Assembly: GCA_029879725.1 (NCBI GenBank)
Contig: JAOUPR010000001.1
Location: 3,324 to 67,323 of the forward strand
Direction: 5' to 3'
Length of the DNA: 64,000 bases
Source: Gemmatimonadota bacterium
GTDB lineage: Bacteria > Gemmatimonadota > Gemmatimonadetes > Longimicrobiales > Gaopeijiaceae
This document shows, piece after piece, positions 17,478 through 30,571 of this stretch (position 1 is its first letter; every line of letters begins with the position of its first letter). Under the pieces are notes generated by a model, which did no database searches, was not told the DNA's origin, and saw only the letters and a list, made by a program, of their open reading frames with translations. Both the position numbers and the translations under genes were made by a program.

Positions 17478-17508
17478 GTCCCGCGTGCGCCGGGGATGCG
17501 CCCCGGGC

Positions 17509-18015
17509 TCAGTTCTCCGCGGTGGTGAAGGGATGCGGACCCCGGGGCTCCTCGCAACCCGGCCACGATTCGTGCTCCATGGCGATTCTCCACCTGCCGT
17601 CTTCTCCGCGGAGAACGAGCCGGGTCCAGAAGAGTGCGCCCGCCTCGCTGGACGCTCCCCTCTGGGTAACCACGGCCGCGTCGGGTCCGGCGACCTGGAC
17701 GCCGACGATCTCCTGCTCGAACACGACTTCGGGATGCGCCGCGTAGAAGGGAGCGACCGTGCCGGCGAAGGCACTCCCTCCCAGGATGAACTCGGTGCAT
17801 CCGAGGTAGGTGAAGTCCTCGGTCCTACCGTAGAACGCCAGGACTTCCTCCGCGTCGTGCGCGTTCATCGCCCGGGTCAGGTCCTGCATCACGCCGGTGA
17901 CCTCCGCGACGATGGCGTCCCGACCTTCCCGGGACGGGTATGCCCCCGGCGAGTCGCATCCGGCGACGGTCAATGCAGCCAGAGTGAGGGCGAAGATGGA
18001 GCGCGAGGCAGACAT
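17509..18015 (-). CDS. Lipoprotein with SnoaL-like/DUF4440 (NTF2-fold) domain
   Basis: ORF 17509..18531 trimmed to MSASRSIFALTLAALTVAGCDSP (lipobox VAGC); 168 aa; NTF2-like core. Confidence 0.55.
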   Translation of the reverse strand: MSASRSIFALTLAALTVAGCDSPGAYPSREGRDAIVAEVTGVMQDLTRAMNAHDAEEVLAFYGRTEDFTYLGCTEFILGGSAFAGTVAPFYAAHPEVVFEQEIVGVQVAGPDAAVVTQRGASSEAGALFWTRLVLRGEDGRWRIAMEHESWPGCEEPRGPHPFTTAEN

Positions 18016-18140
18016 ACGGTTCGGTCCGGTGTCGAAGGAGCGGATCCGGCACCGCGAGCACCCGCCCGAACCCGTTCCGGACAGGTGCCCCGGGCCGAGA
18101 GGCCACGATCCCGGAGGATCGTGACCCATGGACCCCCGGT

Positions 18141-19232
18141 TCAGTGCGTCCTCATGACCTCGAGGGTATTGGTGAGCACGGCCATGGCGTAGGCCGGATT
18201 GTGGATCCCGTGACTCAGATCCTCCTCGAACATCTGCCAGTTGGCGAACCCGGCCACCACGTCCGCCGGCCACGTGCCGGGAACGGCGTAGTGATCGACA
18301 CCCTGGATCCCGATGCGTTGGAGCTCCGTGGAGATGTCCGCGAGGAGTGTCGTGACCAACGTCTGCACGGTGTTGTGGTCGAAGGTCGTCAGGGGAACCG
18401 TGGTATGGCATCCGGTGCCGTTGCACCCCGCCACGTTCTCCTCCACCGCACCGTGATAGAGGTACGACATCTTCCACGTATGTCCGCCGGCCTGGCTGCC
18501 GAAAGCCTGGGCCATGTGACAGGTGCCGCACACCTCTGGGTTGCTGTCCGGGTCACCATGGACGGTAGGGCCACCGGCGATGACCCGCGATCCCGTGAAC
18601 TCGAACGCGCCCACTCCACCCACGACCTGGGCCTGCGGGCCGTGGTGGAAACCGTACCGGGACGAGGTGAGCGTAACGTCGGCACCCCCCAACTCGGGTA
18701 CGGGGCTGAGCACCCTGCCCTGATGGCACTGAGCGCACAGATTCCCCACGTCCGCCCCGTAGTCCACCGTCCCATGACCGGCGTTCCACAACTCCACGGG
18801 AGCCGTGGTGGTCAGGGCGAAGTCGGCGTCGGTGTAGGTCGTGTGGATCTGATGGCACGTCCGGCAATTGATGGGTGCGGGGTCAACGACGTTGGCGGCC
18901 GTGACCATCGCGCCCGTGGCGATCCGCTCGATGAAGCCCTGGTGGGTGTGACAGGGCGCGCAACTCGTGGTCGACCGCTCGAAATTCCCACCGAGCCTGT
19001 GCTTCGACTCGCCATACTGCACCTGCTTGGCGTACAGCGTCACGTCTTCGGTGTGGCACTGGGTGCAGTTCTCGTTGGCATCCTGTCCGGCCGGACCGGT
19101 CGGTCCGGCGGGGCCCTGGAGTCCCTGGGTGCCTTGTGGCCCGGCGGGCCCCGTCGGCCCCTCCGGGCCTTCGCATCCGGCACCGATGACGAGGGCCCCG
19201 ATGAACAGGAAGGCCCAACTGCGTCGTAACAT
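18141..19232 (-). CDS. Hexa-heme c-type cytochrome lipoprotein with N-terminal collagen-like (Gly-X-Y)10 tether
   Basis: 363 aa; signal peptide ending IGAGC; immediately followed by EGPEGPTGPAGPQGTQGLQGPAGPTGPAGQD (10 consecutive G-X-Y); heme motifs CTQCH, CAPCH, CRTCH, CAQCH, CGTCH plus a CX4CH (CNGTGCH); AGGGAGGG RBS 3 nt before the ATG. Confidence 0.8.
   Translation of the reverse strand: MLRRSWAFLFIGALVIGAGCEGPEGPTGPAGPQGTQGLQGPAGPTGPAGQDANENCTQCHTEDVTLYAKQVQYGESKHRLGGNFERSTTSCAPCHTHQGFIERIATGAMVTAANVVDPAPINCRTCHQIHTTYTDADFALTTTAPVELWNAGHGTVDYGADVGNLCAQCHQGRVLSPVPELGGADVTLTSSRYGFHHGPQAQVVGGVGAFEFTGSRVIAGGPTVHGDPDSNPEVCGTCHMAQAFGSQAGGHTWKMSYLYHGAVEENVAGCNGTGCHTTVPLTTFDHNTVQTLVTTLLADISTELQRIGIQGVDHYAVPGTWPADVVAGFANWQMFEEDLSHGIHNPAYAMAVLTNTLEVMRTH
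19080..19169 (-). repeat. Coding repeat: 10 uninterrupted Gly-X-Y triplets (collagen-like) inside the hexa-heme cytochrome gene
   Basis: Residues 22-51 of the 18141..19232 product; at DNA level an imperfect GGn-CCn 9-nt periodicity. Confidence 0.7.
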
Positions 19233-19490
19233 GTTTCCCTCCCTTGAAGAGTAGATGCTACTCGATCAGTGAGGAGGGTCTCGGCCCGGAATCCGGTAAT
19301 GGCAGGGAGGACAGGGGGAGTATACCGGCCGTCATGGCCGCGGCATGCACCTAATGGTACATTAATGGACGGGAGCGCGCTACCCCGATCTACGTAGTGT
19401 TACGGACCCTTCCCGAGGCACGGGATCCGTGGGATTACCCATCGGCGCACCTACTCCCATTCCCACCAGACCCTCCAGGTCGAAAAGCCC

Positions 19491-20168
19491 ATGAAATCGG
19501 CGATCTTGGCGTGCTCGATGGTCCTCGGGCTCCTCGTCGTACCGGTCCGCGCGTCCGCCCAGGACAGCTCCTCGATCTCCCTTTCGCCCCGCATCGCGCT
19601 CTTCGCCCCGGACTCGTACTTCTACGAGGACTTCGTCAACTTCGCGGGGGATGGACCCGTGGAGTGGTCCCACGGCGCCCTGGGCCGGATGGGAGCGTTC
19701 GGCGTCTCCGGTGAATGGCGCGTGGCACACGGGATCCGGATCCGGGGAGAGATCCTCCGTTCCTTCGACGGGTGGTTGCGGGTAGCCCACTCGGTGGTGA
19801 CCCCCAGGGTGCTGTTCGAGCCACCCCGGGTGGTGACCACGTGGCTGGACGCGCCCGCCACCCTGACGCTCACGAGCCTCCAGGTGGTGCTCCCCACGGA
19901 GCTACGGTGGGAATGGCTGCGGCCGTACGTCTCCGGCGGCGTGGGTGGAAAGCGCTACGCGTTCGGAGACCCCCTCACGCCCAACGAGGCGGGCGCGACC
20001 CTCCCTTCGCCTGGGTTCACGTGGGGCGGAGACCTGGGAGCAGGCGTCGAATTGACGCTCCTGGGGATCACGGCGGACCTGCAGGTCCGCGACGCCATCA
20101 CGCGCTACTGGGGAAAGACCCAGCACGACCTGGTGTACACGGGCGGCCTCTGGTTCAACGTCCGGTGA
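19491..20168 (+). CDS. Predicted outer-membrane beta-barrel protein (small, ~8-10 strands)
   Basis: 225-aa ORF; signal peptide MKSAILACSMVLGLLVVPVRASAQ; alternating hydrophobic pattern; C-terminus GGLWFNVR. Confidence 0.55.
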   Translation: MKSAILACSMVLGLLVVPVRASAQDSSSISLSPRIALFAPDSYFYEDFVNFAGDGPVEWSHGALGRMGAFGVSGEWRVAHGIRIRGEILRSFDGWLRVAHSVVTPRVLFEPPRVVTTWLDAPATLTLTSLQVVLPTELRWEWLRPYVSGGVGGKRYAFGDPLTPNEAGATLPSPGFTWGGDLGAGVELTLLGITADLQVRDAITRYWGKTQHDLVYTGGLWFNVR

Positions 20169-20180
20169 GGTGAGGGGGAT

Positions 20181-21194
20181 CTACCACACCCGGGTCACGC
20201 CGACCTGGAGTTGAAAGTCCAGGGACGGGCCGCGAGGCGGCACGTCCTCCTGGAGTGATGCCTCCCATCGCCACCCGTTACCCGCCCGACCCACCACGCC
20301 CACCACCAGGTCGGTCACGGCATGGTCCATGTCCGGATCGCCGAGCGGGCGGGTGAGCGGTGGGGAAGCCACGAACTGGATCACCCCACTCGCCCCCGGG
20401 CCGAGCGGCCGCTCCAGGGCCACGGCCAGAAGCCAACCCCACCCCCGGAGCACATCGCGCAACTCGGGAAGCGTCCGCACGGAGAACCCCTCCACCACAC
20501 CGTGCCCATGCCACCCTCTCCACTCCCTACGCGCCATGGCCGCGACGGCCACGTCGGCGCGCTCCGTCCCGAACGGATCGTCCACCATCGGGATCCGTGC
20601 GCTGACCCGGAATGACAAGACCCTCTGGCGGGAGACGTCCCGGAACACCCGCCACTTCCCGAACAGGCGCACCTCCGTGAGCGCCCACTCCCTCCTCGGC
20701 ACGGCCAACCGGAGCCTCCCCCGTGCATCGACGAACGTGACCTGGTGCTCACCATACGGGTATCGCTCGCGGAAGTGGTTCCCGAGTCCGAACGCGTTGT
20801 GGAAGCCCACGATGACCGGATCGAGGATCCCTCCGCCGGTGTTCTCCCACGCGGCCCGCACCCCGATCTCCACGCCCTTCCCCAGGCCGGCCCGGACGGT
20901 GGCGGACGCGATCAGCCGCTCCAGGTCCAGGACGACCTGGTGGGTGGCCGAGGAGTCGCGCTCGAAGATGTTGGCGTACGCGAACCAGAGGCTCGCCGAG
21001 ACGCCTGCGCCGGGGAGTACCTCCGCCGACTCCGTGACCCCCGTGTAACCGAGCCGCTGGAGGGGAGCACCCTCCTCGAAGGTGAGCGGACCCAGGGGGG
21101 TTCCCTGCCCCGCGGCGGGAGATTCCATGGGGGCGAACCCGACCGCCAGGGACGCCGCCCAGGCGACCGGCGGCGGCACCGCCGCGCGGGGCAC
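20181..21194 (-). CDS. Predicted outer-membrane beta-barrel (porin-like) protein, last gene of the cytochrome operon
   Basis: ORF 20181..21989 trimmed to a GTG 3 nt after the upstream cytochrome stop (VPRAAVPPPVAWAASLAVGFAP signal-like N-terminus); alternating amphipathic strands, Gly/aromatic-rich, C-terminal QLQVGVTRVW (terminal aromatic residue typical of OMPs). Confidence 0.6.
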   Translation of the reverse strand: MPRAAVPPPVAWAASLAVGFAPMESPAAGQGTPLGPLTFEEGAPLQRLGYTGVTESAEVLPGAGVSASLWFAYANIFERDSSATHQVVLDLERLIASATVRAGLGKGVEIGVRAAWENTGGGILDPVIVGFHNAFGLGNHFRERYPYGEHQVTFVDARGRLRLAVPRREWALTEVRLFGKWRVFRDVSRQRVLSFRVSARIPMVDDPFGTERADVAVAAMARREWRGWHGHGVVEGFSVRTLPELRDVLRGWGWLLAVALERPLGPGASGVIQFVASPPLTRPLGDPDMDHAVTDLVVGVVGRAGNGWRWEASLQEDVPPRGPSLDFQLQVGVTRVW

Positions 21195-21196
21195 GC

Positions 21197-22624
21197 CTAC
21201 CGTCCCACCACCGAACGGTGGAACGCGTCGTCCATCTCCTCCGACATGAACCGGGCCTCCAGCCTGTAGTGGCAATAGGAGCAGAAGCCGGGGCGGGGCG
21301 GGAGCCCGAAGTCCGGACGTGGCGGCACCGGGACCCCCGCCGCGGAGTAGGCGGCCGCCACTTCTTCGATACTCTGGTCGAGCATCTGGTGGGTGAGGAT
21401 GAGATTGTGGTAGGCGCCGCCCCTGTCCAGCAACCCCAACCGACGGCGGACATCCACCACGACCCCTTCCAGGGCCGAAGCCGGAAGGCGGACGTCCGCC
21501 GCCCCCAGGTACGCTTCCACCAGCGAGATCCGCTCGGCGATCCCCTCCTCCCACCACCGCAGCACGGTGTCGTATTCCCGGCCATGGCACCCCGTGCACG
21601 CGGATCCACTGCCCCGGGTCGCCACCCCGCCCCGGCCGGGCCTCTCGGCCGGCACATGGCACGAGCGGCAGGTCAGACCCTGGGTGAACTTGTGCGAGGG
21701 TGCCGAGAGCGGCATCCCATCCACCAGCCCCAGGAAGAGCCTTTGCGGCTCGGCATGCGTGTCGCGGTGGCACGCGATGCACGTCGCCGGATCGCGAAGG
21801 CCATACCCCAGCTCCACGTCGTGGGCGTGGTCGTGGCAGTCGGTGCAGCGAAGGTCCACGGCGGAGCTCATCGCCTGGATCCGGTGGGTGTCCGCCTCGT
21901 GGCACGTGCCGCACGACACCCCGGTGTGATCCGGATGAAGATCCTCGCCCAGCCCTGCCGCCGTGACGGCGCCGGCATTCGCGTGGCACCGGTCACACCG
22001 CTCCGCCGAAACCTCCCGGCTGGGACGCGACACGTCGAAATGGCACCGTACACATCCGCCCGACACCCAGGGGAGCCCCTGGTGCGGCACCGCGACTCCC
22101 TGACTCGTGGCCCCCTCGAACTCCAGATCCTGATGGCACACGCGGCACTCTTCCCCTCGAACTCCCGCCAGCTCCGACTCGTGGCACAACCCGCACGTCT
22201 CGGCTCCGGCCGTCAGGAGCCCGCCACCCTCCTCGTGGCGATGGCACCCCGCACACTCCACCGCGACCTGAGCCGAGTCACCGTGGGTCACGTGGTGGAA
22301 CTCCACCGTGACCATGGTCAGGCTCGAGCGCGGGGAGCGCCGGTGGCAGTCCCCGGAGACGCACGTCTCGCCCGGGACGGAGCCCCGAGCCCGGTCGGCG
22401 GTCTCGCCCCGATGGCACTCCGAGCAAGAGAGCTCCGCGTGCCCCGCGCCTGCTTCCATCGCGATCCCCGGACCCGACCGGACCTCCGCATCCGCCGGAT
22501 CGGCCTCCCGCGACACCGTGGGGTCGCAGGCCAGAGCCATCAGGGTCGCCGCGGACAGAACGGCGAGCCCACACCTTCGTGAATCGGCCCGGAAGGGCCG
22601 GATCAGCAGAACGTCACTGCCCAT
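21197..22624 (-). CDS. Multi-heme c-type cytochrome (12 CXXCH + 1 CX4CH)
   Basis: ORF 21197..23185 trimmed to Met at 22624 (MGSDVLLIRPFRADSRRCGLAVLSAATLMALACD; signal/lipobox-like); motifs CSECH, CVSGDCH, CAGCH, CGLCH, CRVCH, CVRCH, CDRCH, CGTCH, CTDCH, CIACH, CRSCH, CTGCH, CSYCH; start overlaps upstream cytochrome b gene by 22 nt. Confidence 0.8.
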   Translation of the reverse strand: MGSDVLLIRPFRADSRRCGLAVLSAATLMALACDPTVSREADPADAEVRSGPGIAMEAGAGHAELSCSECHRGETADRARGSVPGETCVSGDCHRRSPRSSLTMVTVEFHHVTHGDSAQVAVECAGCHRHEEGGGLLTAGAETCGLCHESELAGVRGEECRVCHQDLEFEGATSQGVAVPHQGLPWVSGGCVRCHFDVSRPSREVSAERCDRCHANAGAVTAAGLGEDLHPDHTGVSCGTCHEADTHRIQAMSSAVDLRCTDCHDHAHDVELGYGLRDPATCIACHRDTHAEPQRLFLGLVDGMPLSAPSHKFTQGLTCRSCHVPAERPGRGGVATRGSGSACTGCHGREYDTVLRWWEEGIAERISLVEAYLGAADVRLPASALEGVVVDVRRRLGLLDRGGAYHNLILTHQMLDQSIEEVAAAYSAAGVPVPPRPDFGLPPRPGFCSYCHYRLEARFMSEEMDDAFHRSVVGR

Positions 22625-23496
22625 AGGATCATTCCGATGAGGGCGATGCCCACGGCGAGAGCGGTGAATCCGAGGATCGCGGCCACCGTGGTGGCCCACC
22701 GTGACGGCGGCGGGGCGGGCGTGTCGGGGACCTCGTCCAGGGAAGGCGTCCGGTGGAGATTCTCCTTCACGCTCTCCATGACCTCCGGGTGCTCCTCCTC
22801 CATGTACTCGAGTGTGGCCCGCCCGGTGAAGATCACGGTGTCCAGCGGGAACTTCTCCGGCCTCAGGTGCACGTTGAAGAAGTGGACCGTGAAGATGAAT
22901 CCCGCTGCCAGCAGAGCCTCGTCGGCGTGGATGACCGTGGCCACGTTGAACGCCCACCCGGGGAGGAAGGCAGCGAAGAACTCGGGAAACCAGAGGACCA
23001 GCCCGGACCCTCCGATGATGGCCACTCCCCAGAACACGGCGAGGTAGTCGAACTTCTCCATGTAGGACCACCTCCGGAACGCCGGCTTCGGTCCGAAGCC
23101 GAGGAACCACCTGATCTGGTTCCAGAAGTCCACCACGTCCCTGGGCTGCGGCACCATGGAGTCGGGGCCCCAGAAGAGGCTCCACCGATCAGGACTGCGC
23201 ACGAACAACACGGCGACGTACCCGACGTGTGCCCCGAAGTAGAGGAAGGTCACGACGGCACCCACCCTGTGGAGGAAGCCGGCGCTTTCCACTCCTCCCA
23301 ACAGGGCCATGAGGGGCCCGGACCAGAAGGCACACGAGAACCTCAAGGGGAGGCCGGTGATCACCAGGAGGAAGAACGACACGATCACGGCCGCGTGGGT
23401 CCACCGGTGGAAGCGGTTGAAGCGCCACACGAAGGGGCCCCTCCCTCGGGCCGCGGCGTCGAGTGACACCGGGTCCCGCACCCTGCTCCCGTTCAT
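22603..23496 (-). CDS. Di-heme cytochrome b membrane subunit (FdnI/HydC/PhsC-like prokaryotic cytochrome b561)
   Basis: ORF 22603..23814 trimmed to MNGSRVRDP at 23496 (GAGGGAGGA RBS); N-terminal RFNRFHRWTHAAVIVSFFLL motif, 4-5 TM helices with conserved His (FLHRVGAV, TVIHADEALLAAGFIFTVHFFNVH); ATGA overlap with upstream cytochrome c stop. Confidence 0.75.
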   Translation of the reverse strand: MNGSRVRDPVSLDAAARGRGPFVWRFNRFHRWTHAAVIVSFFLLVITGLPLRFSCAFWSGPLMALLGGVESAGFLHRVGAVVTFLYFGAHVGYVAVLFVRSPDRWSLFWGPDSMVPQPRDVVDFWNQIRWFLGFGPKPAFRRWSYMEKFDYLAVFWGVAIIGGSGLVLWFPEFFAAFLPGWAFNVATVIHADEALLAAGFIFTVHFFNVHLRPEKFPLDTVIFTGRATLEYMEEEHPEVMESVKENLHRTPSLDEVPDTPAPPPSRWATTVAAILGFTALAVGIALIGMILWAVTFC

Positions 23497-24695
23497 GATC
23501 GATCCTCCCTCGTCCCGGTTCCCGCGCGCATGAGCCGTACTCCGTCGAGGGTGACCCGGAACAGCCAGAGTGCCGTGTGGAGGCCGAACACCGTGAACAC
23601 ACCCACGAGGAGCGCGGTCATGAAACGGTACGACCAGTAGACGTGGGGGTACCGCTCCCGGTCGGCGTGATCGGCATGTGGCTGGAATCCGGCGAAGTTC
23701 ACCGCGGCGCCGGGATGGCACGCGCGGCACGTCTTGAGAAGGTTCTCCTCGGACACGGACGAACGCGGATCTTCGGTGGCGTGGATCGAGTGTGCCGTGT
23801 GGCAGGCCTGGCACGTCGCCGCGCGACCGGACCCCAGCGTCGATGCCTGACCGTGATACGAGTCGGCGAAGCTCTCCCCGTATTCCTCATGGCACCCGGA
23901 GCACGCCGCCACCACGGACCGGCCGAAGACCGCGCCGTCCCCGGATACCGCCGGCATCCCGTGGGCTCCGTGACACGCGGTGCACCCCGGAGGGGCTGCG
24001 GGAGGGTGCCCCAGGTCGAATTCATCCAGTGACGTGCCCCCGTCGGGAGGCCCGGAAGTCTCGTTCACGGCCTCGCGGTGGGCGTCCCGCTCCCACTCCG
24101 CGGCCACCTGGTCATGGCACGTCCCGCACGTGGCGTGCTGGTTCAGAGGATGTACGCCCGCCTCGGGATCCCCGGGGGACCGGGTACCGTGGGCTTCGTG
24201 GCAGGCGGTACACGCCACAGAGTCCGCGTGCGGGTCCGACGCCGGCATGCGCGGCTCGAAGTGGCACGATACGCACGCGCCGTTCATCTCCCGGAGGCCC
24301 GGCGTCTCGCCGAGACCCGCGGAGGAGGCCACATCGTGAACCCCGTGGCACGACGCACACTCCGCCGCGGCGTCCACGGCGTGCACGCCTCCGCTCCACT
24401 CCGTGGCCGGGTCCGGGTGGCACTCGGCGCACGACGCCGTGGCGGCCGTCCCCGGGTGCGGGTAACGGCGATACCCCGAATGGCAGTCGGCACACCCTCG
24501 TTCGTCGTGAGCCGTGCCCCGCTGACCGACGGACGGAACCAGGAGCGCCGAGGCTTCTTCGAGCGTCTCGGTGTGCTGACGAAGGAACTCCAGCTCGGCG
24601 TGACACAGGTCGCACCGTCCCCCGGCCTGCTGAGCGTCCACGGAGGCGGCTCCGGCCAGACCCGCCATGCACACGACCACGTCCACGATTCTCAT
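23493..24695 (-). CDS. Undeca-heme c-type cytochrome with signal peptide and C-terminal transmembrane anchor
   Basis: 400 aa; signal MRIVDVVVCMAGLAGAASVDAQQ; eleven CXXCH (CDLCH, CADCH, CAECH, CASCH, CVSCH, CTACH, CGTCH, CTACH, CSGCH, CQACH, CRACH); C-terminal hydrophobic helix FMTALLVGVFTVFGLHTALWLF; ATG overlaps upstream regulator stop (ATGA). Confidence 0.8.
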   Translation of the reverse strand: MRIVDVVVCMAGLAGAASVDAQQAGGRCDLCHAELEFLRQHTETLEEASALLVPSVGQRGTAHDERGCADCHSGYRRYPHPGTAATASCAECHPDPATEWSGGVHAVDAAAECASCHGVHDVASSAGLGETPGLREMNGACVSCHFEPRMPASDPHADSVACTACHEAHGTRSPGDPEAGVHPLNQHATCGTCHDQVAAEWERDAHREAVNETSGPPDGGTSLDEFDLGHPPAAPPGCTACHGAHGMPAVSGDGAVFGRSVVAACSGCHEEYGESFADSYHGQASTLGSGRAATCQACHTAHSIHATEDPRSSVSEENLLKTCRACHPGAAVNFAGFQPHADHADRERYPHVYWSYRFMTALLVGVFTVFGLHTALWLFRVTLDGVRLMRAGTGTREDRS

Positions 24696-26047
24696 GCATC
24701 CACTCCGAACTTCCGTAAACGGTTCCGGATCTGATGGCGGCTCAGTCCGAGAAGCCGGCCCGCCTCGGAGCGATTTCCTTCGGCCATCTCCAACGCCTCC
24801 CCCAGGAGCCGCCGCTCCAACTGGGCGAGGTCCAGCCCGGCGGGTGTCAGGGCCGGCACGGCACGTCCCGCCGATCCCTCGGCCTTCGCCCTCAGCTCGG
24901 CCGGAAGGGCTCCGGCGTGCACGGTCCGGTCGTCGGTCAGGAGGACGGCGCGCTCCACGACGTTGCAGAGCTCCCTCACGTTCCCCGGCCAGCCGTATCC
25001 CTCGATCAGTTCCATGGCCTCCGCGTCGACCTCCCGGATCTCCTTCCCGAACTCCGCCGCGAAGCGCACCACGAAGGCCCGCACGAGGAGCGGGATGTCC
25101 GATCTTCGATGACGCAGGGGAGGCAACTCGATGGGGAGCACACGGAGCCGGTAGAAGAGGTCCTCCCGGAAACGGCCCGCCTCCACCTCGTCCTCGAGAA
25201 TCCGGTTCGTGGCGGCTATGACGCGCACGTCCACCTTGCGGTCCTCGATGCCGCCCACCCTGCGGAACACGTGATCTTCCAGGAACCGGAGGAGCTTTCC
25301 CTGAACGGCGGGAGACAGCTCCGCGATCTCGTCCAGGAAGAGCGTGCCGCCATCCGCGACCTCCACGAGCCCACGCTTGAGGGTGCGAGCGTCCGTGAAC
25401 GCCCCCTTCTCGTGACCGAACAGCTCGGACTCCATGAGAGACTCGGGAAGGGCCGAGCAGGTGACCGTCACGAAGGGGCGGTGGGCACGCGCGCCGAGCC
25501 GGTGGATGAGGCGGGCCACCACCCCCTTTCCCGTTCCGGTCTCACCCAGGAGGAGAACGGTGGCCGTATCCGCGGCGGCCACGCGCTCCGCCAGGTCGAG
25601 GACCTCCCGCATGGCGGGACCGGACCCGATCACGTCGCCCCGGATCCCGGCCTCCTTCCTCAGGGCGCGGATCTCCCGGCGCATACGGGTACGCTCCAGC
25701 GCGCGGTCCAGCGTGGCCTCCAGTCGATCGAGAGAGAAAGGCTTCTCCAGGTAGTCCTCCGCCCCGTGCTTCAGCGCCTCCACCGCCGACTGCACGGTGG
25801 CGTGCGCCGTGATCATGATGCAGGGGACGTCGTTGGGCGGTCCCAGCTCCTCGAGTATCTCGGTGCCCTCCCCATCCGGAAGCCGGATGTCCAGGAGAGC
25901 CGCGTCGGGTGGAGTCCGGTCGATGATGGCACGGGCTCCGGCCACCGTGGTCGCTTCGGAGACCACGTACCCCCGGCGAGTGAGCCGCTCCCTGACCACG
26001 GTGCGGATGAGGGAGTCGTCGTCGAGAACGAGGACGCGGTTCGCCAT
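24692..26047 (-). CDS. Sigma-54-dependent response regulator (NtrC/Fis family: REC - AAA+ sigma54-activator - HTH)
   Basis: ORF 24692..26053 trimmed to ATG 26047 (GGAGGGG RBS). REC with LVLDDD / LLDIRLPDGEG. Sigma54-interaction domain with Walker A GETGTGKG and GAFTGA-type loop (EKGAFTDA), ESELFGHEKGAF. C-terminal Fis-type HTH RLLGLSRHQIRNRLRKFG. Confidence 0.9.
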   Translation of the reverse strand: MANRVLVLDDDSLIRTVVRERLTRRGYVVSEATTVAGARAIIDRTPPDAALLDIRLPDGEGTEILEELGPPNDVPCIMITAHATVQSAVEALKHGAEDYLEKPFSLDRLEATLDRALERTRMRREIRALRKEAGIRGDVIGSGPAMREVLDLAERVAAADTATVLLLGETGTGKGVVARLIHRLGARAHRPFVTVTCSALPESLMESELFGHEKGAFTDARTLKRGLVEVADGGTLFLDEIAELSPAVQGKLLRFLEDHVFRRVGGIEDRKVDVRVIAATNRILEDEVEAGRFREDLFYRLRVLPIELPPLRHRRSDIPLLVRAFVVRFAAEFGKEIREVDAEAMELIEGYGWPGNVRELCNVVERAVLLTDDRTVHAGALPAELRAKAEGSAGRAVPALTPAGLDLAQLERRLLGEALEMAEGNRSEAGRLLGLSRHQIRNRLRKFGVDA

Positions 26048-26049
26048 GA

Positions 26050-27492
26050 TCACCCCTCCGGCGTGTGGGCGACGGCACGCCCGGGAAGGACCACCCGCAC
26101 GCGCGTCCCCCGCCCCGGACTGCTCTCGATCACCATGGCGCCCGCGTGAGCGGATACGATCCGCGCCACCAGGGGAAGGCCGAGCCCGGTTCCCGTGGGC
26201 TTCGTGGAATAGAAGGGTTTGAGCGCCCGCTCCGTCGCGGCCGGATCGAGGCCCGCCCCGGTGTCCGCGATGGACACCTCGACCCCGCCCCCTTCCGCGG
26301 GCGTCACCCCGATGGTGATCTCCCCGCCACGGGGCATGGCCTCCACGGCGTTGGTGAGCAAGTTGAGGAACGCCTGGCGGAGACGGTGGCGATCACCGGG
26401 TACCTCGGCTTCAGGGAGCATGTACAGGCGATGGATCCCGACCCGCTCCATCCCGGGGAATCCCACCAGCCCCGCCAGAGCATCGTCCAGCGTCTCGGCC
26501 AGATTCACGCTGTCTTCGTTCATGACCAGGGGCTTGGCGAGACCGAACAGGTCCTGCATGGTCTCCTCCAGGCGGCGCAGTTGCAGATGGACCGCGTCGA
26601 GGACTTCGCGCCCCTGTTCGGTGATGTCGTATTCCTGGTCGAGCACCGACACCGCGGTCTGGATGGACGCCAGCGGGCGCTTGAATTCGTGGGCCATCTC
26701 CGCGGCCAGCTCTCCCACCTGGGCGAGTCCTTCCCGGGCCTCCATCTGGCGGCTCTGCTCCCGGGCCTCCGCCGCCATCTCCTCGCCCCGCTCGACGATG
26801 TCCCGCACCGAGTCCTCCAGGTCGGACAGGTCTCCCGGGCGGGAAGCCGGTGCGCCGTGCCCGGGCCCACTGTGGAGGAGAACCTCCACACGGTGGAGCG
26901 GAGCCACGACCTCCCTCTCGAGCATGGTGGCGACGACGCTGCCCATGGCCAGGAGGGACACCGCCACCAACGCCATCCCCAGGTACATCCCCTTCCGTAT
27001 TCCCTCGCGGGCGGGCGCCGCGAACATCACCACTTCGAGCACGGCGGCGGCGGGAAGGGACAAGGGGAAGTATGCGCGGGCCGAGTTCCGGTCATCGGAC
27101 ATGGACACGGTGCCCGAGCGGGGGAGTTCGGCCGCCTCGGGGATCCAGCGTGACCCGGCGGACATCCCCTCTTCCGAGCGGTGAGCGGAGAGGATCACGC
27201 GACCGTCGGGTCCGTAGACGCGGGCCTCCAGAGGAGAGCCGCCGACCTGGAGCCGCGTCAGCGCGTGACGTGCCGGCTCGGGGCGCCCCAGGCGAAGCGC
27301 GGACTCTATGGCGGCCTGGGTGGACACGCCGGCGAGGAGCGCCTGCTCCCGGACCGTCGCCAACGCCTGCTCCTCCCAGTAGCGGAAGGAAAAGAAGGTG
27401 GAGAGACCGAGGGCACCCAGTCCGGCACCCGTCAGGGTCAGGACGACCTTGGTGCGGAGGGGGAGGGACCGTATGACCGCCAACCAGAGCAT
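26050..27492 (-). CDS. Sensor histidine kinase (2 TM, ~150-aa periplasmic sensor, HisKA, HATPase_c), cognate to the downstream NtrC-type regulator
   Basis: 480 aa; TM1 VVLTLTGAGLGALGLSTFF, TM2 GMYLGMALVAVSLLAMGSVVA; H-box AHEFKRPLASIQ; N-box NLLTNAVEA; G-boxes DTGAGL / GTGLGLPL; stop TGA 2 nt before regulator ATG. Confidence 0.85.
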   Translation of the reverse strand: MLWLAVIRSLPLRTKVVLTLTGAGLGALGLSTFFSFRYWEEQALATVREQALLAGVSTQAAIESALRLGRPEPARHALTRLQVGGSPLEARVYGPDGRVILSAHRSEEGMSAGSRWIPEAAELPRSGTVSMSDDRNSARAYFPLSLPAAAVLEVVMFAAPAREGIRKGMYLGMALVAVSLLAMGSVVATMLEREVVAPLHRVEVLLHSGPGHGAPASRPGDLSDLEDSVRDIVERGEEMAAEAREQSRQMEAREGLAQVGELAAEMAHEFKRPLASIQTAVSVLDQEYDITEQGREVLDAVHLQLRRLEETMQDLFGLAKPLVMNEDSVNLAETLDDALAGLVGFPGMERVGIHRLYMLPEAEVPGDRHRLRQAFLNLLTNAVEAMPRGGEITIGVTPAEGGGVEVSIADTGAGLDPAATERALKPFYSTKPTGTGLGLPLVARIVSAHAGAMVIESSPGRGTRVRVVLPGRAVAHTPEG

Positions 27493-27497
27493 GGCTA

Positions 27498-27610
27498 GCC
27501 GCTTCCGAAGCGGCGTCTCGGCAGGAGGAGGGGAGGGCCCCGTTCGCGTTACAGGTACCCTTCGCGGGAGGCCCCGTTCCTGGCGTATCGGCGCGAATCC
27601 AGGAACGGGG
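27498..27610. promoter_or_regulatory. Two dyad-symmetric elements in the leader of the kinase/regulator/cytochrome operon
   Basis: (i) 17-nt perfect palindrome GCCGCTTC-C-GAAGCGGC at ~27498-27514, 6 nt upstream of the kinase ATG; (ii) 12-bp perfect inverted repeat CCCCGTTCCTGG-N15-CCAGGAACGGGG at ~27572-27610. Candidate regulator-binding sites and/or terminator of the upstream membrane-protein gene. Confidence 0.35.
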
Positions 27611-27631
27611 CGACGCGGCTCGACCGGCGGC

Positions 27632-28798
27632 TCATGTGATCAGGAGAAGGGCGAGAAGCGCGGTGGCGTCCGCGGCCAGGGCGGCTCCGAACCCCTTCTT
27701 CCAGAAGAGGACTCCGAAGGCCACCGCCGGGACGGCGACACCCGCCAGGAGGAAGGCCACCGTACCCGTCCAATCCGGGAACCCGACGGCCAGGGCGCCG
27801 GGGGTGTAGAGCGCCACCTGCGACGCCGTCGCCACCAGTACCGCCACCACCGCCGCCTCTCCACCCTGCACCCGATGCCACCGCAGGAAGAGCCAGGCCA
27901 CGCCCGTCACCAGGACCAGGCGGAGGAGCACCTCGTCCACCAGTGCCTGGGCGACCTCCACCACCACGGCGCCGGCGCCGGGATGGCTCACGCCCGGCCC
28001 CACGAACGGGACCGCCATGAGCGCCACGACCAGACCGGTGACCGCCCCCACCACCACGTCACCCCCTTTCCATCCCGGGCGCACCAGCCCCACGCCCACC
28101 CCGGGGAATGGAAGCCGGTCCAGTAGCCGGAGCGCGAGCGTGACCGACGGCCCGACGACCCACACCGCCAGGATCGCCGCCAGGAGGATCGCCGCCGTCT
28201 CGGAGATCCGTAGACGGACCCCCCAGATCTCCGGCCGGTCGGCCAGGAAGATCAGGCTCAATGCCACCACCGTGCCCGCCACGAGCGCCGTGCCCACCCG
28301 GCGCTCCGGCCACCTCGCGAAGGCGTTCCCCACGGCCTTCCACGTGTGGACCGCGGCCACGCCCATCACCAGCACGGCCGCCATCCACCCCGCCGTCACG
28401 CCCACCAGCGGACCGGGCCTACCCAGATAGCTCGCGGGGACCGTCATGGCCACCCAGACCGCGATGAGCCACGCGACCGCCAGCGCGGGAATCGTATAGA
28501 GCATCGCCCGTCCCATGTCGGGCACGGCGGAGCGGAGGGAGAGCCCTTCGGGCCGTCCCAGGAGTCCCAGGACGATCCCGTGCACGCCACCGGCGAACGC
28601 CCCGATCAGGAACAGAGTGGTCGCGTCCAGGAAGAGGGCATGTGCGCTCAGGCGGCCCATCAGGGTCATCGCGGCCAGGAATACGCCCCCGAGCGCGATC
28701 CCGCCGGCCATGGATCCGAGGACGGCGACCCGCCCGTGGAGTCCGATACCCCGGAGAAGAATGCGGGGCTCTCGATGTTGGGTTTTCGGCGCGTTCAT
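27632..28798 (-). CDS. Polytopic integral membrane protein of unknown function (~10 TM), encoded directly upstream of the kinase-regulator-cytochrome operon
   Basis: ORF 27632..28849 trimmed to MNAPKTQHREPRI at 28798 (GGGAGGG RBS); Gly/Ala/Val/Leu-rich with 10+ hydrophobic segments; no family recognised. Confidence 0.55.
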   Translation of the reverse strand: MNAPKTQHREPRILLRGIGLHGRVAVLGSMAGGIALGGVFLAAMTLMGRLSAHALFLDATTLFLIGAFAGGVHGIVLGLLGRPEGLSLRSAVPDMGRAMLYTIPALAVAWLIAVWVAMTVPASYLGRPGPLVGVTAGWMAAVLVMGVAAVHTWKAVGNAFARWPERRVGTALVAGTVVALSLIFLADRPEIWGVRLRISETAAILLAAILAVWVVGPSVTLALRLLDRLPFPGVGVGLVRPGWKGGDVVVGAVTGLVVALMAVPFVGPGVSHPGAGAVVVEVAQALVDEVLLRLVLVTGVAWLFLRWHRVQGGEAAVVAVLVATASQVALYTPGALAVGFPDWTGTVAFLLAGVAVPAVAFGVLFWKKGFGAALAADATALLALLLIT

Positions 28799-28845
28799 GG
28801 TTCCCTCCCGTAGGGGTTCGGCCTGCGTGTTCGACCGACCAAGGA

Positions 28846-28860
28846 TCAACGAACGTGCCC
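28846..28860 (-). promoter_or_regulatory. Weak sigma-54-type (-24/-12) promoter candidate upstream of the membrane-protein gene
   Basis: Minus-strand GGGCACG-ttcg-TTGA (consensus TGGCACG-N4-TTGC; -24 GG and spacing match, -12 GC replaced by GA), ~47 nt upstream of the ATG at 28798. Confidence 0.2.
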
Positions 28861-29087
28861 ATTCCCCGCACCGTGCTCCAACTCGTTGATATCGTGTCGC
28901 TTACGGGACGCTCACGGACGGGGCGGGCGATCCGGGGGGGGGCGCCGGGCGCGCGTTTTCACGCACCTTCGCGCGCGGAATCGCCCGCCCTCGTGCACCC
29001 CGGGGCGTCGGACACGCACTCCTCCCGCACGAAGATCTTGAGATTTGAAGCGTAGCGATTAATCATTCACCACCGCGTCTCCTCCAG

Positions 29088-29120
29088 AGCGGCCGCCTGC
29101 GTCCATGCCTCACCGGGACG
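29088..29120 (+). repeat. Perfect 11-bp inverted repeat (stem-loop) in the intergenic region upstream of the SET-domain gene
   Basis: CGCCTGCGTCC-atgcctcaccg-GGACGCAGGCG; lies in a locally AT-richer island (~29031-29070: gaagatcttgagatttgaagcgtagcgattaatcattc) that may contain the SET-gene promoter. Confidence 0.3.
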
Positions 29121-29159
29121 CAGGCGTCGTTCGTATCACAGTTGGAGGGTCCCACTCCG

Positions 29160-29579
29160 TTGAGGGGAGCAGGGACCCGAGGCGAGAACCACGGCGTGCT
29201 TCGCGTGCCAACCTACGTAGCCCCCAGCTCCATCCAGGGAGTGGGACTGTTCGCTGCCGTCGACATCCCCGCAGGAACCACCATCTGGGAGTTCACTCCC
29301 GACGTCGACTGGCGGATCCCCTTGAAGGACATGCAACTCTTTCCCGAACCGTATCGCACGTGGCTTCTCCGCTATGTGTATCTGGACGAGTCGGGAGCGT
29401 ACGTGTTGTGTGGAGACAACGGGAAGTACATGAATCACTCTTTCGACCCCAACTGTGACGACGTGGAGGGCCCGTACACCGTGGCCCGCACGAACATCCG
29501 GGCGGGCGAAGAGTTGACGTGCGACTACCGTTTGTTCGACCTGGATTCCAAGAACAACGGGCTCCACGGCTACCTGTAG
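29160..29579 (+). CDS. SET domain-containing protein (putative protein-lysine N-methyltransferase)
   Basis: ORF 29142..29579; the 29142 codon itself is TTG, and the likely start is an in-frame TTG at 29160 (GGAGGG 9 nt upstream) or GTG at 29196. SET signatures GVGLFA...GTTIW near N-terminus and NHSFDPNC...EELTCDY C-terminal motif. Markedly more A/T-ending codons than neighbouring genes. Confidence 0.7.
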   Translation: MRGAGTRGENHGVLRVPTYVAPSSIQGVGLFAAVDIPAGTTIWEFTPDVDWRIPLKDMQLFPEPYRTWLLRYVYLDESGAYVLCGDNGKYMNHSFDPNCDDVEGPYTVARTNIRAGEELTCDYRLFDLDSKNNGLHGYL

Positions 29580-30571
29580 CCGGAGCCGGGGACGGGGTGG
29601 CGAGTCACCCCGTCCCCGACTCGACCCGTCTCGGGATTCAGGGCCTCGTACACTTCACGGGATATGGCGGCGATGAGACGCTCCGCCTCGTTGTCGTACG
29701 TCCAGGTCTGGTCTTCGTTCTCCTTCGTCATGACGCAGATGACGAAGTCCCGTGACGGGCCGTACACCACCCCACAGTCGTTCCGGGCCCGGTCCAGCGA
29801 TCCGGTCTTGTGCGCCACCGCCACCTCGGGCGGAAGCTCGCGCGGAATCCCCTCCCGGTAGAACTGCCGGGTCATGATGCCCAGCATCTTCTCGGACGCC
29901 TCCGCGTCCACCAGCTCCCCCCGGTAGAGCATGGTCAGGAGGGCGGCGATCTCCACCGGCGTCGTCACGCCGAGACCGAACGCCCGCGACGCCTCGGGAT
30001 CGAAGCTCTCCCCCGCGTTCGCATTGACGGGAAGGAAGATCCGGGTGTGCTCCAGACCGAGGGACCGCATGCGCTCGGTCACCTGCCTCGGGCGGAGCTT
30101 CTCCAGGAGAAGGTTCGTCGCCGTGTTGTCGCTGAGGGTGACCATCAGGAACACGGCGTCCCAGATGGTGAGCTCCCTGGGCGTGGAAAGGAACTGCAAC
30201 ACCCCCGAGCCGCCGGTCTGATCCAGTGCGAGGAGCGTCAGCGGGTCGTTCAGGGAGAGCGAGCCCTCGCGAACGCGGGCGAACGCATCCACCATCACGC
30301 CCAGCTTCACCAGGCTGGCCGATGGGAACTCTTCGTCGCCCATGATGCTGAAGGAGTCTCCGTTCACCGGATCCACCACGGCCAGTCCGACGACGCCGTG
30401 ATGTTGCGCGATGAGTCCGGAGATCCGGGACCGGATGGACTCGAGGAATTGTGAGGGAGGGCCGTGGGCCGAGGCCTGCAGTGGAACGGCCGCCCCGAGA
30501 AGAATCCATGAGGCAAGGACCGTATGAAGGGAGGAGGGTCGACGACGCGACGCGCTCGTGAAGAATCGCAT
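29570..30571 (-). CDS. Class A beta-lactamase-family serine hydrolase, secreted
   Basis: ORF 29570..30637 trimmed to MRFFTSASRRRPSSLHTVLASWILLGAAVPLQASA (signal peptide); active-site motifs SASLVK (S-x-x-K), SDN (LSDNTATN), KTG (AHKTGS); 3' end overlaps the SET gene 3' end by 10 nt (convergent). Confidence 0.75.
   Translation of the reverse strand: MRFFTSASRRRPSSLHTVLASWILLGAAVPLQASAHGPPSQFLESIRSRISGLIAQHHGVVGLAVVDPVNGDSFSIMGDEEFPSASLVKLGVMVDAFARVREGSLSLNDPLTLLALDQTGGSGVLQFLSTPRELTIWDAVFLMVTLSDNTATNLLLEKLRPRQVTERMRSLGLEHTRIFLPVNANAGESFDPEASRAFGLGVTTPVEIAALLTMLYRGELVDAEASEKMLGIMTRQFYREGIPRELPPEVAVAHKTGSLDRARNDCGVVYGPSRDFVICVMTKENEDQTWTYDNEAERLIAAISREVYEALNPETGRVGDGVTRHPVPGSGYR

What the first reader, a model, noticed from the sequence alone, without database searches (positions are those of the whole stretch)
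20181..28798. Self-contained two-component/sigma54-regulated multi-heme cytochrome + cytochrome b + porin operon (candidate porin-cytochrome electron conduit)
Six minus-strand genes are chained by ATGA or TGA-N2-ATG junctions, and two have overlapping or 3-nt-spaced starts. In order: a sensor kinase with a periplasmic domain, a sigma54-dependent NtrC-type regulator, an 11-heme cytochrome c with a C-terminal TM anchor, a di-heme FdnI/HydC-like cytochrome b, a 12 CXXCH + 1 CX4CH cytochrome, and a beta-barrel ending in an aromatic residue. That adds up to a quinol-oxidising inner-membrane module, a large periplasmic heme wire and a porin. The parts resemble a mix of Geobacter Cbc (cytochrome b + multi-heme c) and Pcc (porin-cytochrome) systems. 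Here the dedicated kinase and sigma54 activator are translationally coupled to their presumptive structural targets, which is unusual. The lineage (apparently Gemmatimonadota/FCB-like) is one where extracellular electron transfer is essentially uncharacterised. A polytopic membrane protein of unknown function (27632-28798) sits immediately upstream and may be the first gene of the unit.
Basis: partly seen in the sequence, partly recalled or inferred. Interest (0 to 1): 0.85.

Follow-up and report, generated by a model that had tools for sequence, protein, structure and literature searches.

The report
Split CbcL-type cytochrome cluster, no porin conduit
A Gemmatimonadota gene cluster encodes an inner-membrane cytochrome b/c quinol oxidoreductase of the Geobacter CbcL type, a 13-heme lipoprotein and its own regulators, but the "porin" behind it is a small, unrelated 12-stranded barrel, so this is not a porin-cytochrome conduit.

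Summary
The sequence observation holds: the gene chain, the heme counts (11; 12+1), the cytochrome b and the beta-barrel are all present at the stated coordinates.

- **D+E are a split CbcL/MtoC/MtrH-type bc-cytochrome.** The two are fused into one ORF in Desulfuromonadales, Elusimicrobia and some Gemmatimonadota. Five transmembrane histidines are invariant.
- **F is a conserved 13-heme lipoprotein.**
- **The conserved unit is A-B-C-D-E-F.** It is complete in 18 Gemmatimonadota genomes.
- **G (DUF3187) does not belong to that unit.** It follows F in 0 of 26 related loci, and 0 of 62 G-homologue loci have a multiheme gene upstream. The F|G junction is a synteny breakpoint. The G model is a 12-stranded FapF/COG4313-like barrel, too narrow to sheathe a cytochrome.
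- **Relatives carry a different candidate conduit.** Many have a 17-heme / 486-aa barrel-like / 16-heme trio beside A-F. The window lacks it.
- **The only conserved sigma54-type promoter precedes gene A, not the cytochromes.** It comes with a tandem palindromic enhancer. A combines a novel 6-TM domain with a CPBP-like domain.
- **Sigma54 control of a bc-cytochrome operon is not new.** Geobacter cbcBA/BccR is a precedent.

Verdict: a new variant of a known kind, of moderate interest.

The parts
28951..28986 (-). Tandem palindromic sites (GCGTGAAAACGCGC and GGGCGATTCCGCGC, centres about 22 bp apart). They are the putative enhancer (UAS) for the NtrC-type activator C.
   Evidence: One search finds them in the window. 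Searches find two GCGCG-N4-6-CGCGC palindromes 22-25 bp apart at -175 to -216 before A in most related loci. Within the 20-kb loci the strict motif is almost exclusive to this region.
28846..28860 (-). Sigma54-type -24/-12-like element GGGCACGTTCGTTGA, 48-62 nt upstream of the ATG of A.
   Evidence: A positionally conserved TGG(C/T)(A/C)C-N5-TTG(T/A/C)A occurs at -62 to -93 in 17 of 20 loci (score >=9/11), against 45 of 2000 random 60-nt windows. The -12 dinucleotide is GT/GA, not the canonical GC.
27632..28798 (-). Gene A: 388-aa polytopic membrane protein. Its N-terminal 6-TM domain of about 230 aa has no known family. Its C-terminal domain of about 140 aa has a CPBP/Abi-like fold.
27571..27611 (-). 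GC-rich hairpin (13-bp stem, 15-nt loop) just after the stop codon of A. It may be a terminator or attenuator.
   Evidence: An equivalent GC-rich hairpin follows A in the related loci read. The window copy has no U-tract and is not called by the terminator scan.
26050..27492 (-). Gene B: sensor histidine kinase (TM 16-34, periplasmic region about 35-172, TM 173-191, HisKA, HATPase_c).
24692..26047 (-). Gene C: NtrC-family sigma54-dependent response regulator (REC, AAA+ with a GAFTDA loop, HTH_8).
23493..24695 (-). Gene D: 11-heme c-type cytochrome subunit with a signal peptide and a C-terminal TM helix carrying the invariant His373. It equals the N-terminal half plus TM1 of CbcL-type proteins.
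22603..23496 (-). Gene E: 5-TM di-heme cytochrome b subunit (invariant H34, H76, H190, H205). It equals TM2-6 of CbcL-type proteins.
21197..22624 (-). Gene F: 13-heme (12 CXXCH + CX4CH) lipoprotein cytochrome.
   Evidence: The lipobox is conserved in about 35 homologues. The CX4CH is a CXXCH in some of them.
20181..21194 (-). Gene G: DUF3187 outer-membrane barrel of 12-14 strands. It is probably co-transcribed here but is not a conserved member of the unit.
19491..20168 (+). Gene I: 225-aa secreted protein of no known family, convergent with G. G and I recur together as a pair.
   Evidence: (L117, L125).
18141..19232 (-). Gene H: hexaheme (5 CXXCH + CX4CH) lipoprotein with a 10-triplet collagen-like linker after the lipobox. 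It belongs to the G-I-H-SnoaL-TMTC block.

Best explanation
The region joins two independent conserved blocks.

**Block 1 (A-B-C-D-E-F, 21197-28798)** is a Gemmatimonadota-wide cluster for a CbcL-type inner-membrane bc-cytochrome.
- E (5 TM helices, two b hemes) and D (11 c hemes in the periplasm, anchored by a TM helix that supplies a conserved His) together form the six-TM, multiheme architecture of CbcL/MtoC/MtrH. Here that architecture is split at the cytoplasmic linker.
- By analogy with CbcL, the complex exchanges electrons between the menaquinone pool and periplasmic hemes. F, a 13-heme lipoprotein, is the next carrier.
- The kinase B and the sigma54 activator C are translationally chained to D-E-F.
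- The predicted target of C is a -24/-12-type promoter with a tandem palindromic enhancer in front of A. A is a two-domain membrane protein that also partners multiheme cytochromes elsewhere. Read-through of the hairpin after A could carry transcription on into B-F.

**Block 2 (G-I-H-SnoaL-TMTC)** starts exactly at G. G is a small general-purpose DUF3187 barrel that landed behind F only in this lineage. It cannot act as a cytochrome sheath.

**Shown:** homology, architecture, synteny, motif conservation and the fold of G.

**Inferred:** quinol oxidation, the direction of electron flow, the location of F, binding of C to the palindromes, and the role of A.
For: - **D+E homology.** D aligns colinearly with residues 66-371, and E (49% identity) with residues 389-655, of a single 663-aa, 9-heme, 6-TM ORF of Pelovirga terrestris.
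- **Fused and split forms.** D and E are one ORF in 16 loci, including 5 Gemmatimonadota, and are split in 38.
- **Heme ligands.** D-H373 and E-H34/H76/H190/H205 are invariant in 47-48 homologues.
- **Match to the published family.** The CbcL architecture and family definition are in PMC6295460. The function of CbcL is in bioRxiv 2021.04.15.440034 and PMC12307469.
- **Gene order.** A-B-C-D-E-F is complete in 18 Gemmatimonadota loci and truncated only by contig ends in others. B-F overlap or abut in relatives too.
- **F.** The lipobox and 13 heme sites are conserved.
- **Promoter and enhancer.** They precede A in the window and in 17 of 20 loci.
- **A different candidate conduit in relatives.** A 17-heme / 486-aa barrel-like / 16-heme MtrC-like trio lies next to A-F in relatives. 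In L041 it is contiguous with them.
Against: - There are no expression, biochemical or localisation data.
- E scores just below the Pfam threshold for PF01292 (27.1 against 30.1 bits).
- Identity to G. sulfurreducens CbcL itself was not measured. The comparison was only with a CbcL-like Desulfuromonadales protein.
- The -12 element is GT or GA rather than the canonical GC.
- No promoter was found for B-F.
- The hairpin after A has no U-tract, so the transcription units are uncertain.
- G is separated from F by only 2 nt with no terminator, so in this organism it is probably co-expressed and could have acquired a related role.
- Only 64 kb of the genome was visible, so a conduit encoded elsewhere cannot be excluded or confirmed.
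Confidence: 0.7

Rival explanations
1. G is the outer-membrane porin of a porin-cytochrome conduit: F (or D) inserts into G and passes electrons across the outer membrane.
For: - G directly follows F (TAG-N2-GTG) with no terminator.
- G is a genuine outer-membrane barrel.
- An outer-surface-type hexaheme lipoprotein (H) lies nearby.
Against: - G's nearest folds are 12-stranded barrels. MtrB ranks 47th with rmsd 7.4 A. From established knowledge, known sheaths have about 20-26 strands.
- F-G linkage is absent in 26 F-containing and 62 G-containing loci.
- The F|G junction is a synteny breakpoint.
- DUF3187 genes sit in housekeeping and molybdo-enzyme contexts.
- Relatives use a different 486-aa barrel-like protein flanked by 16- and 17-heme cytochromes.
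Confidence: 0.06
2. The same D-E-F hardware runs in reverse, as proposed for the MtoC relatives of CbcL. Electrons taken up from extracellular or periplasmic donors (Fe(II), Mn(II), reduced humics) pass through F and D to E, which reduces quinone.
For: - The CbcL/MtoC/MtrH family includes members from Fe(II) oxidisers, and no sequence feature separates quinol oxidases from quinone reductases.
- Gemmatimonadota MAGs have been reported with Cyc2-like iron oxidase homologues.
- One related locus comes from a MAG labelled 'Mn-Gemmatimonadetes' (L025).
Against: - No Cyc2, MtoA or MtoB homologue is in the window.
- The closest fused relatives found are from metal-reducing Desulfuromonadales.
- Direction cannot be read from sequence.
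Confidence: 0.17
3. D-E-F is a periplasmic respiratory or detoxifying reductase for a soluble substrate (for example nitrite, hydroxylamine, sulfite, or selenite/tellurite), with F as the catalytic subunit. On this reading it is not an electron-export chain.
For: - F has a long helical C-terminal region and one atypical CX4CH site.
- There are very weak NCBIfam hits to ExtN/ExtO of a selenite/tellurite operon (E about 0.003).
Against: - There is no CXXCK and no genuine CX15CH. The CX4CH is an ordinary CXXCH in several homologues.
- Only generic multiheme Pfam families are hit, and nothing in the PDB matches by sequence.
- The cluster is adjacent to Pcc-like cytochrome/barrel trios in relatives.
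Confidence: 0.07

Closest known systems
CbcL (G. sulfurreducens GSU0274) and the CbcL/MtoC/MtrH family of inner-membrane bc-cytochromes
   Same: - A periplasmic multiheme c domain followed by six TM helices of HydC/FdnI-like di-heme cytochrome b with conserved His ligands.
- The E part is 47-53% identical to CbcL-like proteins of Desulfuromonadales.
- The family was already recorded in Gemmatimonadetes and Elusimicrobia.
   Different: - It is split into two genes at the linker after TM1 in the window and in 38 loci.
- It has 11 hemes rather than 9.
- It is always followed by a 13-heme lipoprotein.
- It is chained to its own kinase and sigma54 regulator, whereas Geobacter cbcL is constitutive.
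- Identity to GSU0274 itself was not measured.
CbcBA with BccR (G. sulfurreducens GSU0593-0598)
   Same: - A separate cytochrome b subunit and a multiheme c subunit anchored by a C-terminal TM helix that may donate a b-heme His.
- The operon starts with hypothetical membrane or unknown proteins behind a sigma54 promoter.
- It contains an RpoN-dependent response regulator and needs a sigma54 activator.
   Different: - CbcB has 4 TM helices and, according to that paper, shares no sequence homology with the b domain of CbcL, which is the family E belongs to.
- CbcA has 7 hemes.
- BccR is transcribed divergently, and no sensor kinase is chained to the cytochromes.
Porin-cytochrome complexes: Geobacter OmaB-OmbB-OmcB (Pcc) and Shewanella MtrCAB
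   Same: - The region carries multiheme cytochromes, a lipoprotein cytochrome and an outer-membrane barrel gene close together.
- Relatives carry a trio (17-heme / 486-aa barrel-like / 16-heme MtrC-like) that does resemble Pcc.
   Different: - The window's barrel G has only 12-14 strands.
- G has no MtrB/PioB or OmbB similarity.
- G is not syntenic with the cytochromes elsewhere.
FapF and COG4313 (Pput2725) 12-stranded outer-membrane channels
   Different: - Sequence identity is only 11-13%.
- There is no amyloid (fap) or aromatic-degradation gene context.
- The substrate of DUF3187 proteins is unknown.
Abi/CPBP-domain membrane proteins SpdC (LyrA) and Abx1, and Rce1
   Same: - The C-terminal domain of A has its best fold matches to SpdC and Rce1 and keeps the Glu/Arg of the EExxxR motif.
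- SpdC and Abx1 modulate histidine kinases (PMC5854430 and PMC3578759).
   Different: - The His motifs are not conserved, and Pfam PF02517 is not hit.
- A occurs directly before D-E-F without any kinase in L035 and L041, and its N-domain occurs alone beside cytochromes. Its role may therefore concern the cytochromes rather than the kinase.

Membership tests
CbcL/MtoC/MtrH inner-membrane bc-cytochromes (as defined in PMC6295460) | N-terminal periplasmic domain with multiple CXXCH motifs (3-23 in the family) | tested here: met
   D has 11 CXXCH after a signal peptide. It aligns colinearly with the c-domain of the Pelovirga fused protein.
CbcL/MtoC/MtrH inner-membrane bc-cytochromes (as defined in PMC6295460) | Six transmembrane helices of HydC/FdnI-like cytochrome b with conserved His ligands | tested here: met
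   There is 1 TM helix in D and 5 in E. D-H373 and E-H34, H76, H190 and H205 are invariant. The PF01292 and FdnI matches are weak.
CbcL/MtoC/MtrH inner-membrane bc-cytochromes (as defined in PMC6295460) | c and b domains on one polypeptide | tested here: not met
   The window has two genes with an ATGA overlap. Fused versions exist in 16 related loci, including Gemmatimonadota.
CbcL/MtoC/MtrH inner-membrane bc-cytochromes (as defined in PMC6295460) | Sequence homology to G. sulfurreducens CbcL, and a demonstrated menaquinol oxidase role | not testable with these tools
Only a CbcL-like Desulfuromonadales protein could be compared (49% identity in the b part). Activity needs experiment.
Porin-cytochrome conduits (MtrCAB / Pcc) | Outer-membrane barrel large enough to enclose a multiheme cytochrome (about 20-26 strands; MtrB/PioB or OmbB type) | tested here: not met
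   [not shown]
Porin-cytochrome conduits (MtrCAB / Pcc) | Conserved linkage of barrel, periplasmic cytochrome and lipoprotein cytochrome genes | tested here: not met
   G follows F in 0 of 26 loci. None of 62 G loci has an upstream multiheme ORF.
Porin-cytochrome conduits (MtrCAB / Pcc) | MtrA/DmsE-type decaheme periplasmic partner | tested here: not met
   D scores 46 bits against a cut-off of 192 for TIGR03508, and F has no hit.
NtrC-family sigma54 enhancer-binding two-component system | Receiver domain, AAA+ sigma54-interaction domain with a GAFTGA-type loop, HTH_8, and a cognate HisKA/HATPase kinase | tested here: met
   C hits Response_reg, Sigma54_activat (E 3.9e-65), AAA_lid_14 and HTH_8, and carries the sequence EKGAFTDA. 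B hits HisKA and HATPase_c.
NtrC-family sigma54 enhancer-binding two-component system | Target promoter with -24 GG / -12 GC elements and upstream activator sites | tested here: inconclusive
   A conserved GG-N10-(T)G element and tandem palindromes 100-130 bp upstream precede A. The -12 element is GT or GA rather than GC. None is conserved before B or D.
DUF3187 (PF11383) outer-membrane barrels | Full-length match to the Pfam model above its gathering score | tested here: met
   G scores 48.8 bits against a cut-off of 24, covering profile positions 19-317 of 320. All 51 homologues carry PF11383.
CPBP/Abi (Rce1-like, PF02517) intramembrane proteases | Motifs EExxxR, FxxxH and HxxxN/D, and a Pfam match | tested here: not met
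   [not shown]

The most novel reading that the evidence does not exclude
A-(B-C)-D-E-F may be the inner-membrane half of a complete, Gemmatimonadota-specific extracellular electron transfer pathway. The other half would be the 17-heme / 486-aa barrel / 16-heme trio that abuts the cluster in many relatives. The expression switch would be a sigma54 enhancer-binding regulator acting on gene A. A is an undescribed two-domain membrane protein (a new 6-TM domain plus a CPBP-like domain) that is a dedicated partner or assembly factor of multiheme cytochromes, including outside this cluster.
Probability: 0.3. Interest if true: 0.65.

Novelty: new variant of a known kind. Interest (0 to 1): 0.4.

Why it matters
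Gemmatimonadota are abundant in soils and sediments, but nothing is known experimentally about how they respire metals or minerals.

- **A defined target.** The analysis identifies a widely conserved module: a CbcL-type quinol oxidoreductase, a 13-heme lipoprotein and its regulators. In relatives there is also a candidate outer-membrane conduit.
- **A testable regulatory site.** The module comes with a precise predicted regulatory site.
- **Evolutionary flexibility.** CbcL-type proteins can be split or fused within a single phylum.
- **Annotation warning.** A barrel gene next to multiheme cytochromes should not be annotated as a porin-cytochrome conduit without checking barrel size and synteny.

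Tried and rejected
- **Canonical sigma54 consensus.** TGGCAC-N5-TTGC with up to 2 mismatches is not enriched in the window (31 matches against 44 expected). No such site is conserved upstream of D or B in 50 loci. The looser family-specific motif is likewise not enriched window-wide.
- **Sequence search of the PDB.** D gave only NrfB at E 0.0015. E and F gave nothing. H gave only collagen peptides.
- **Rfam.** Nothing at gathering threshold in 17000-30000.
- **Terminator and promoter scan.** Nothing meaningful between the genes.
- **CX15CH (MccA-type).** Rejected as an overlap of two ordinary motifs. There is no CXXCK.
- **Pfam on the A family.** No hits.
- **Literature search for DUF3187.** Only a mention that it resembles other barrels.
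- **Literature search for Gemmatimonadota extracellular electron transfer.** It found surveys only, with no description of this cluster.
- **A as a pure kinase modulator.** Weakened by L035 and L041, which have A-D-E-F without a two-component system, and by a stand-alone N-domain beside cytochromes.
- **Horizontal-transfer signal.** The GC3 of A-I is uniform at 0.82-0.90.
- **Context of stand-alone N-domain homologues.** One of the two lookups hit a contig too short to be informative.

Full report
**1. Observation**

| Gene | Coordinates | Description |
|---|---|---|
| A | 27632-28798 | 388 aa, polytopic |
| B | 26050-27492 | sensor kinase |
| C | 24692-26047 | NtrC-type regulator |
| D | 23493-24695 | 11 CXXCH, C-terminal TM helix |
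| E | 22603-23496 | cytochrome b |
| F | 21197-22624 | 12 CXXCH + 1 CX4CH |
| G | 20181-21194 | ends ...TRVW |

The junctions are TGA-N2-ATG (B/C), ATGA (C/D), ATGA (D/E), a 22-nt overlap (E/F) and TAG-N2-GTG (F/G). A is 139 nt upstream of B. Gene calls on two metagenome contigs that carry the identical locus give the same boundaries.

Pfam and NCBIfam confirm the kinase and the sigma54 activator, which has the loop sequence GAFTDA. D and F hit only generic multiheme families. E scores just below threshold for Ni_hydr_CYTB. G is DUF3187 (E 7.5e-13).

There is no CXXCK. The one CX15CH match is the chance overlap of two neighbouring CXXCH motifs. Sources name the organism a Gemmatimonadota MAG.

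**2. What D and E are**

E has thousands of relatives, and the nearest are 60-76% identical, in Gemmatimonadota. A scan of one genome per species returned 50 loci.

In Pelovirga terrestris (Desulfuromonadales) the match lies in a single 663-aa ORF with nine CXXCH motifs followed by six TM helices.
- D aligns colinearly with residues 66-371 of that ORF, including its C-terminal TM helix.
- E aligns with residues 389-655 at 49% identity.

This is the published architecture of Geobacter CbcL: nine hemes plus a six-TM HydC/FdnI-like di-heme b domain (PMC6295460; bioRxiv 2021.04.15.440034).

A frame check shows D and E fused in 16 loci: all Desulfuromonadales and Elusimicrobia hits, and five Gemmatimonadota. 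They are split in 38. The window's stop/start overlap falls in the cytoplasmic linker of the fused forms.

D contributes one TM helix and E five. His373 of D and His34, 76, 190 and 205 of E are invariant in 47-48 homologues. That is enough for two b hemes, with one ligand possibly coming from D's helix, as proposed for Cbc complexes.

D+E is therefore a split member of the CbcL/MtoC/MtrH family. A 2018 survey had already recorded that family in Gemmatimonadetes and Elusimicrobia.

**3. The conserved unit**

tblastn of the window's proteins against the 50 loci gives the order A-B-C-D-E-F in 18 Gemmatimonadota loci. Further loci are cut only by contig ends. In gene calls for relatives, B through F overlap or abut just as in the window.

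About 35 F homologues start with a lipoprotein signal (MGR..LL..A[GA]C). They carry 12 CXXCH + CX4CH or 13 CXXCH, so F is a 13-heme lipoprotein.

A is the conserved first gene. Two loci (L035, L041) have A-D-E-F without the two-component system.

**4. G is not part of that unit**

- None of 26 loci with at least 1.2 kb of sequence downstream of F has a G, I or H homologue there.
- A G-centred scan of metagenomes gave 62 loci. None has a multiheme ORF upstream, and only one has a multiheme ORF anywhere in the locus.
- DUF3187 genes occur in several other contexts. Some sit alone among housekeeping genes, including in MAG M8-58_Bin_425, which carries A-F on another contig. Some sit beside molybdo-hydroxylase/cytochrome b and multicopper-oxidase genes.
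- In GCA_039587465 the arrangement is TPR-G-I-H-H'-SnoaL-TMTC, with no A-F.
- The window shares G-I-H-SnoaL-TMTC with that genome. The similarity stops exactly at the F|G junction, so two blocks were juxtaposed in this lineage.

From established knowledge, cytochrome sheaths such as MtrB have 26 strands.

**5. What relatives have instead**

In many Gemmatimonadota loci A-F lies next to a further gene set:
- a 17-heme protein;
- a 486-aa secreted, barrel-like protein ending ...LRYEF and a short tail;
- a 16-heme protein with an above-threshold MtrC/MtrF domain hit;
- two small lipoproteins;
- an 8-heme lipoprotein.

In L041 these genes are contiguous with A-D-E-F. This is a better candidate for an outer-membrane conduit, and it supports an electron-export role for the family.

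The window has no homologue of that trio. D, F and H are its only CXXCH-rich ORFs. H is 24% identical to the 8-heme lipoprotein.

**6. Regulation**

The canonical sigma54 consensus is not enriched in the window and is not found before D.

Aligning the regions upstream of A shows two conserved features.
- A positionally conserved TGG(C/T)(A/C)C-N5-TTG(T/A/C)A lies at -62 to -93. It scores at least 9/11 in 17 of 20 loci, against 45 of 2000 random windows.
- Two GCGCG-N4-6-CGCGC palindromes, 22-25 bp apart, lie 100-130 bp further upstream.

The window has the promoter-like element at 28846-28860 and the palindromes at 28951-28986. Within the 20-kb loci the strict palindrome is almost confined to this region and, in some, to the A-B spacer.

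A GC-rich hairpin follows A in the related loci read. No conserved -24/-12 element precedes B.

The inference is that C activates a sigma54 promoter in front of A. B-F expression would then depend on read-through or on an unidentified promoter.

Two caveats apply. The -12 dinucleotide is non-canonical, and nothing here is experimental. The Geobacter cbcBA operon offers a close precedent: a sigma54 promoter before hypothetical genes, an RpoN-dependent regulator inside the operon, and dependence on BccR. The coupling is therefore not unusual.

**7. Gene A**

The A family has 165 word-indexed relatives, all without Pfam domains. The few that carry a source name are Gemmatimonadota/Longimicrobiales.

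A profile search of 1.8 billion representatives shows that the N-terminal domain of about 230 residues also exists as stand-alone proteins. One of them lies directly upstream of multiheme cytochrome genes.

Abi proteins are known to modulate histidine kinases. However, the kinase-free A-D-E-F loci and the stand-alone N-domains point at least as strongly to a role with the cytochromes themselves. The function remains open.

**8. Mechanism and verdict**

The most likely reading (confidence 0.7) has four elements.
- E/D form a CbcL-type complex that links the menaquinone pool to periplasmic hemes.
- F is the next carrier.
- B/C and the sigma54 promoter at A set expression.
- G is a bystander barrel acquired by rearrangement.

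The direction of electron flow cannot be read from sequence. Outward flow is favoured by the Pcc-like neighbours in relatives and by the affinity to Desulfuromonadales.

The finding is a new variant of a known kind. It is useful as an entry point to Gemmatimonadota electron transfer, but it is not the novel porin-cytochrome conduit proposed. Interest: 0.4.

Noticed in passing
window 18141-19232 (minus strand); also L003:12069-13157 and L003:13453-14577: H is a hexaheme lipoprotein. Its lipobox Cys is followed directly by 10 Gly-X-Y triplets (CEGPEGPTGPAGPQGTQGLQGPAGPTGPAGQ), which hit the Pfam Collagen model and PDB collagen peptides. Two paralogues in a relative keep this linker. A collagen-like stalk on a multiheme cytochrome is not something I know to be described.
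   Followed up: partly
window 15822-21194; L003:10001-17112: G-I-H-SnoaL-TMTC/TPR is a conserved block (42-61% identity) that occurs without the cytochrome bc cluster. The convergent G-I pair also recurs on two short metagenome contigs (L117, L125). What links a 12-stranded barrel, a 225-aa secreted protein and the collagen-stalk cytochrome is unexplained.
   Followed up: partly
L058:12285-19376; L041:1267-7544; L014:464-4287; L043:14599-20864: Many Gemmatimonadota carry a Pcc-like set next to the A-F cluster: an 8-heme lipoprotein, a 17-heme protein, a 486-aa barrel-like protein, a 16-heme MtrC-like protein, a 123-aa lipoprotein and a monoheme cbb3-type lipoprotein. In L041 it is contiguous with A-D-E-F.
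   Followed up: partly
L027:6844-14207: One Gemmatimonadales MAG has three tandem copies of the D-E pair (at least one of them fused) between the two-component system and F.
   Followed up: no
L128:1210-5206: A stand-alone 235-aa homologue of the N-terminal 6-TM domain of A sits directly upstream of a 473-aa multiheme cytochrome and two further genes. The domain may therefore be a general partner of multiheme cytochromes.
   Followed up: partly
L005:9241-14206; L006:5001-10996; L063:2824-9996: Pairs of DUF3187 barrel genes flank or follow a xanthine-dehydrogenase-family molybdoenzyme operon that ends in a cytochrome b. In two loci an Rrf2 regulator and a multicopper oxidase lie between the barrels.
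   Followed up: no
A-B spacers of L019, L021, L023, L032, L034, L010, L012: The palindrome predicted to be the enhancer before A also occurs 43-120 nt before the kinase gene B in several relatives, which suggests autoregulation. The window's shorter A-B spacer lacks a clear copy.
   Followed up: partly
window 27493-27530 (minus strand): A second small hairpin (GCCGCTTC GGAAGCGGC) lies immediately upstream of the ATG of B, where a ribosome-binding site would be expected.
   Followed up: no
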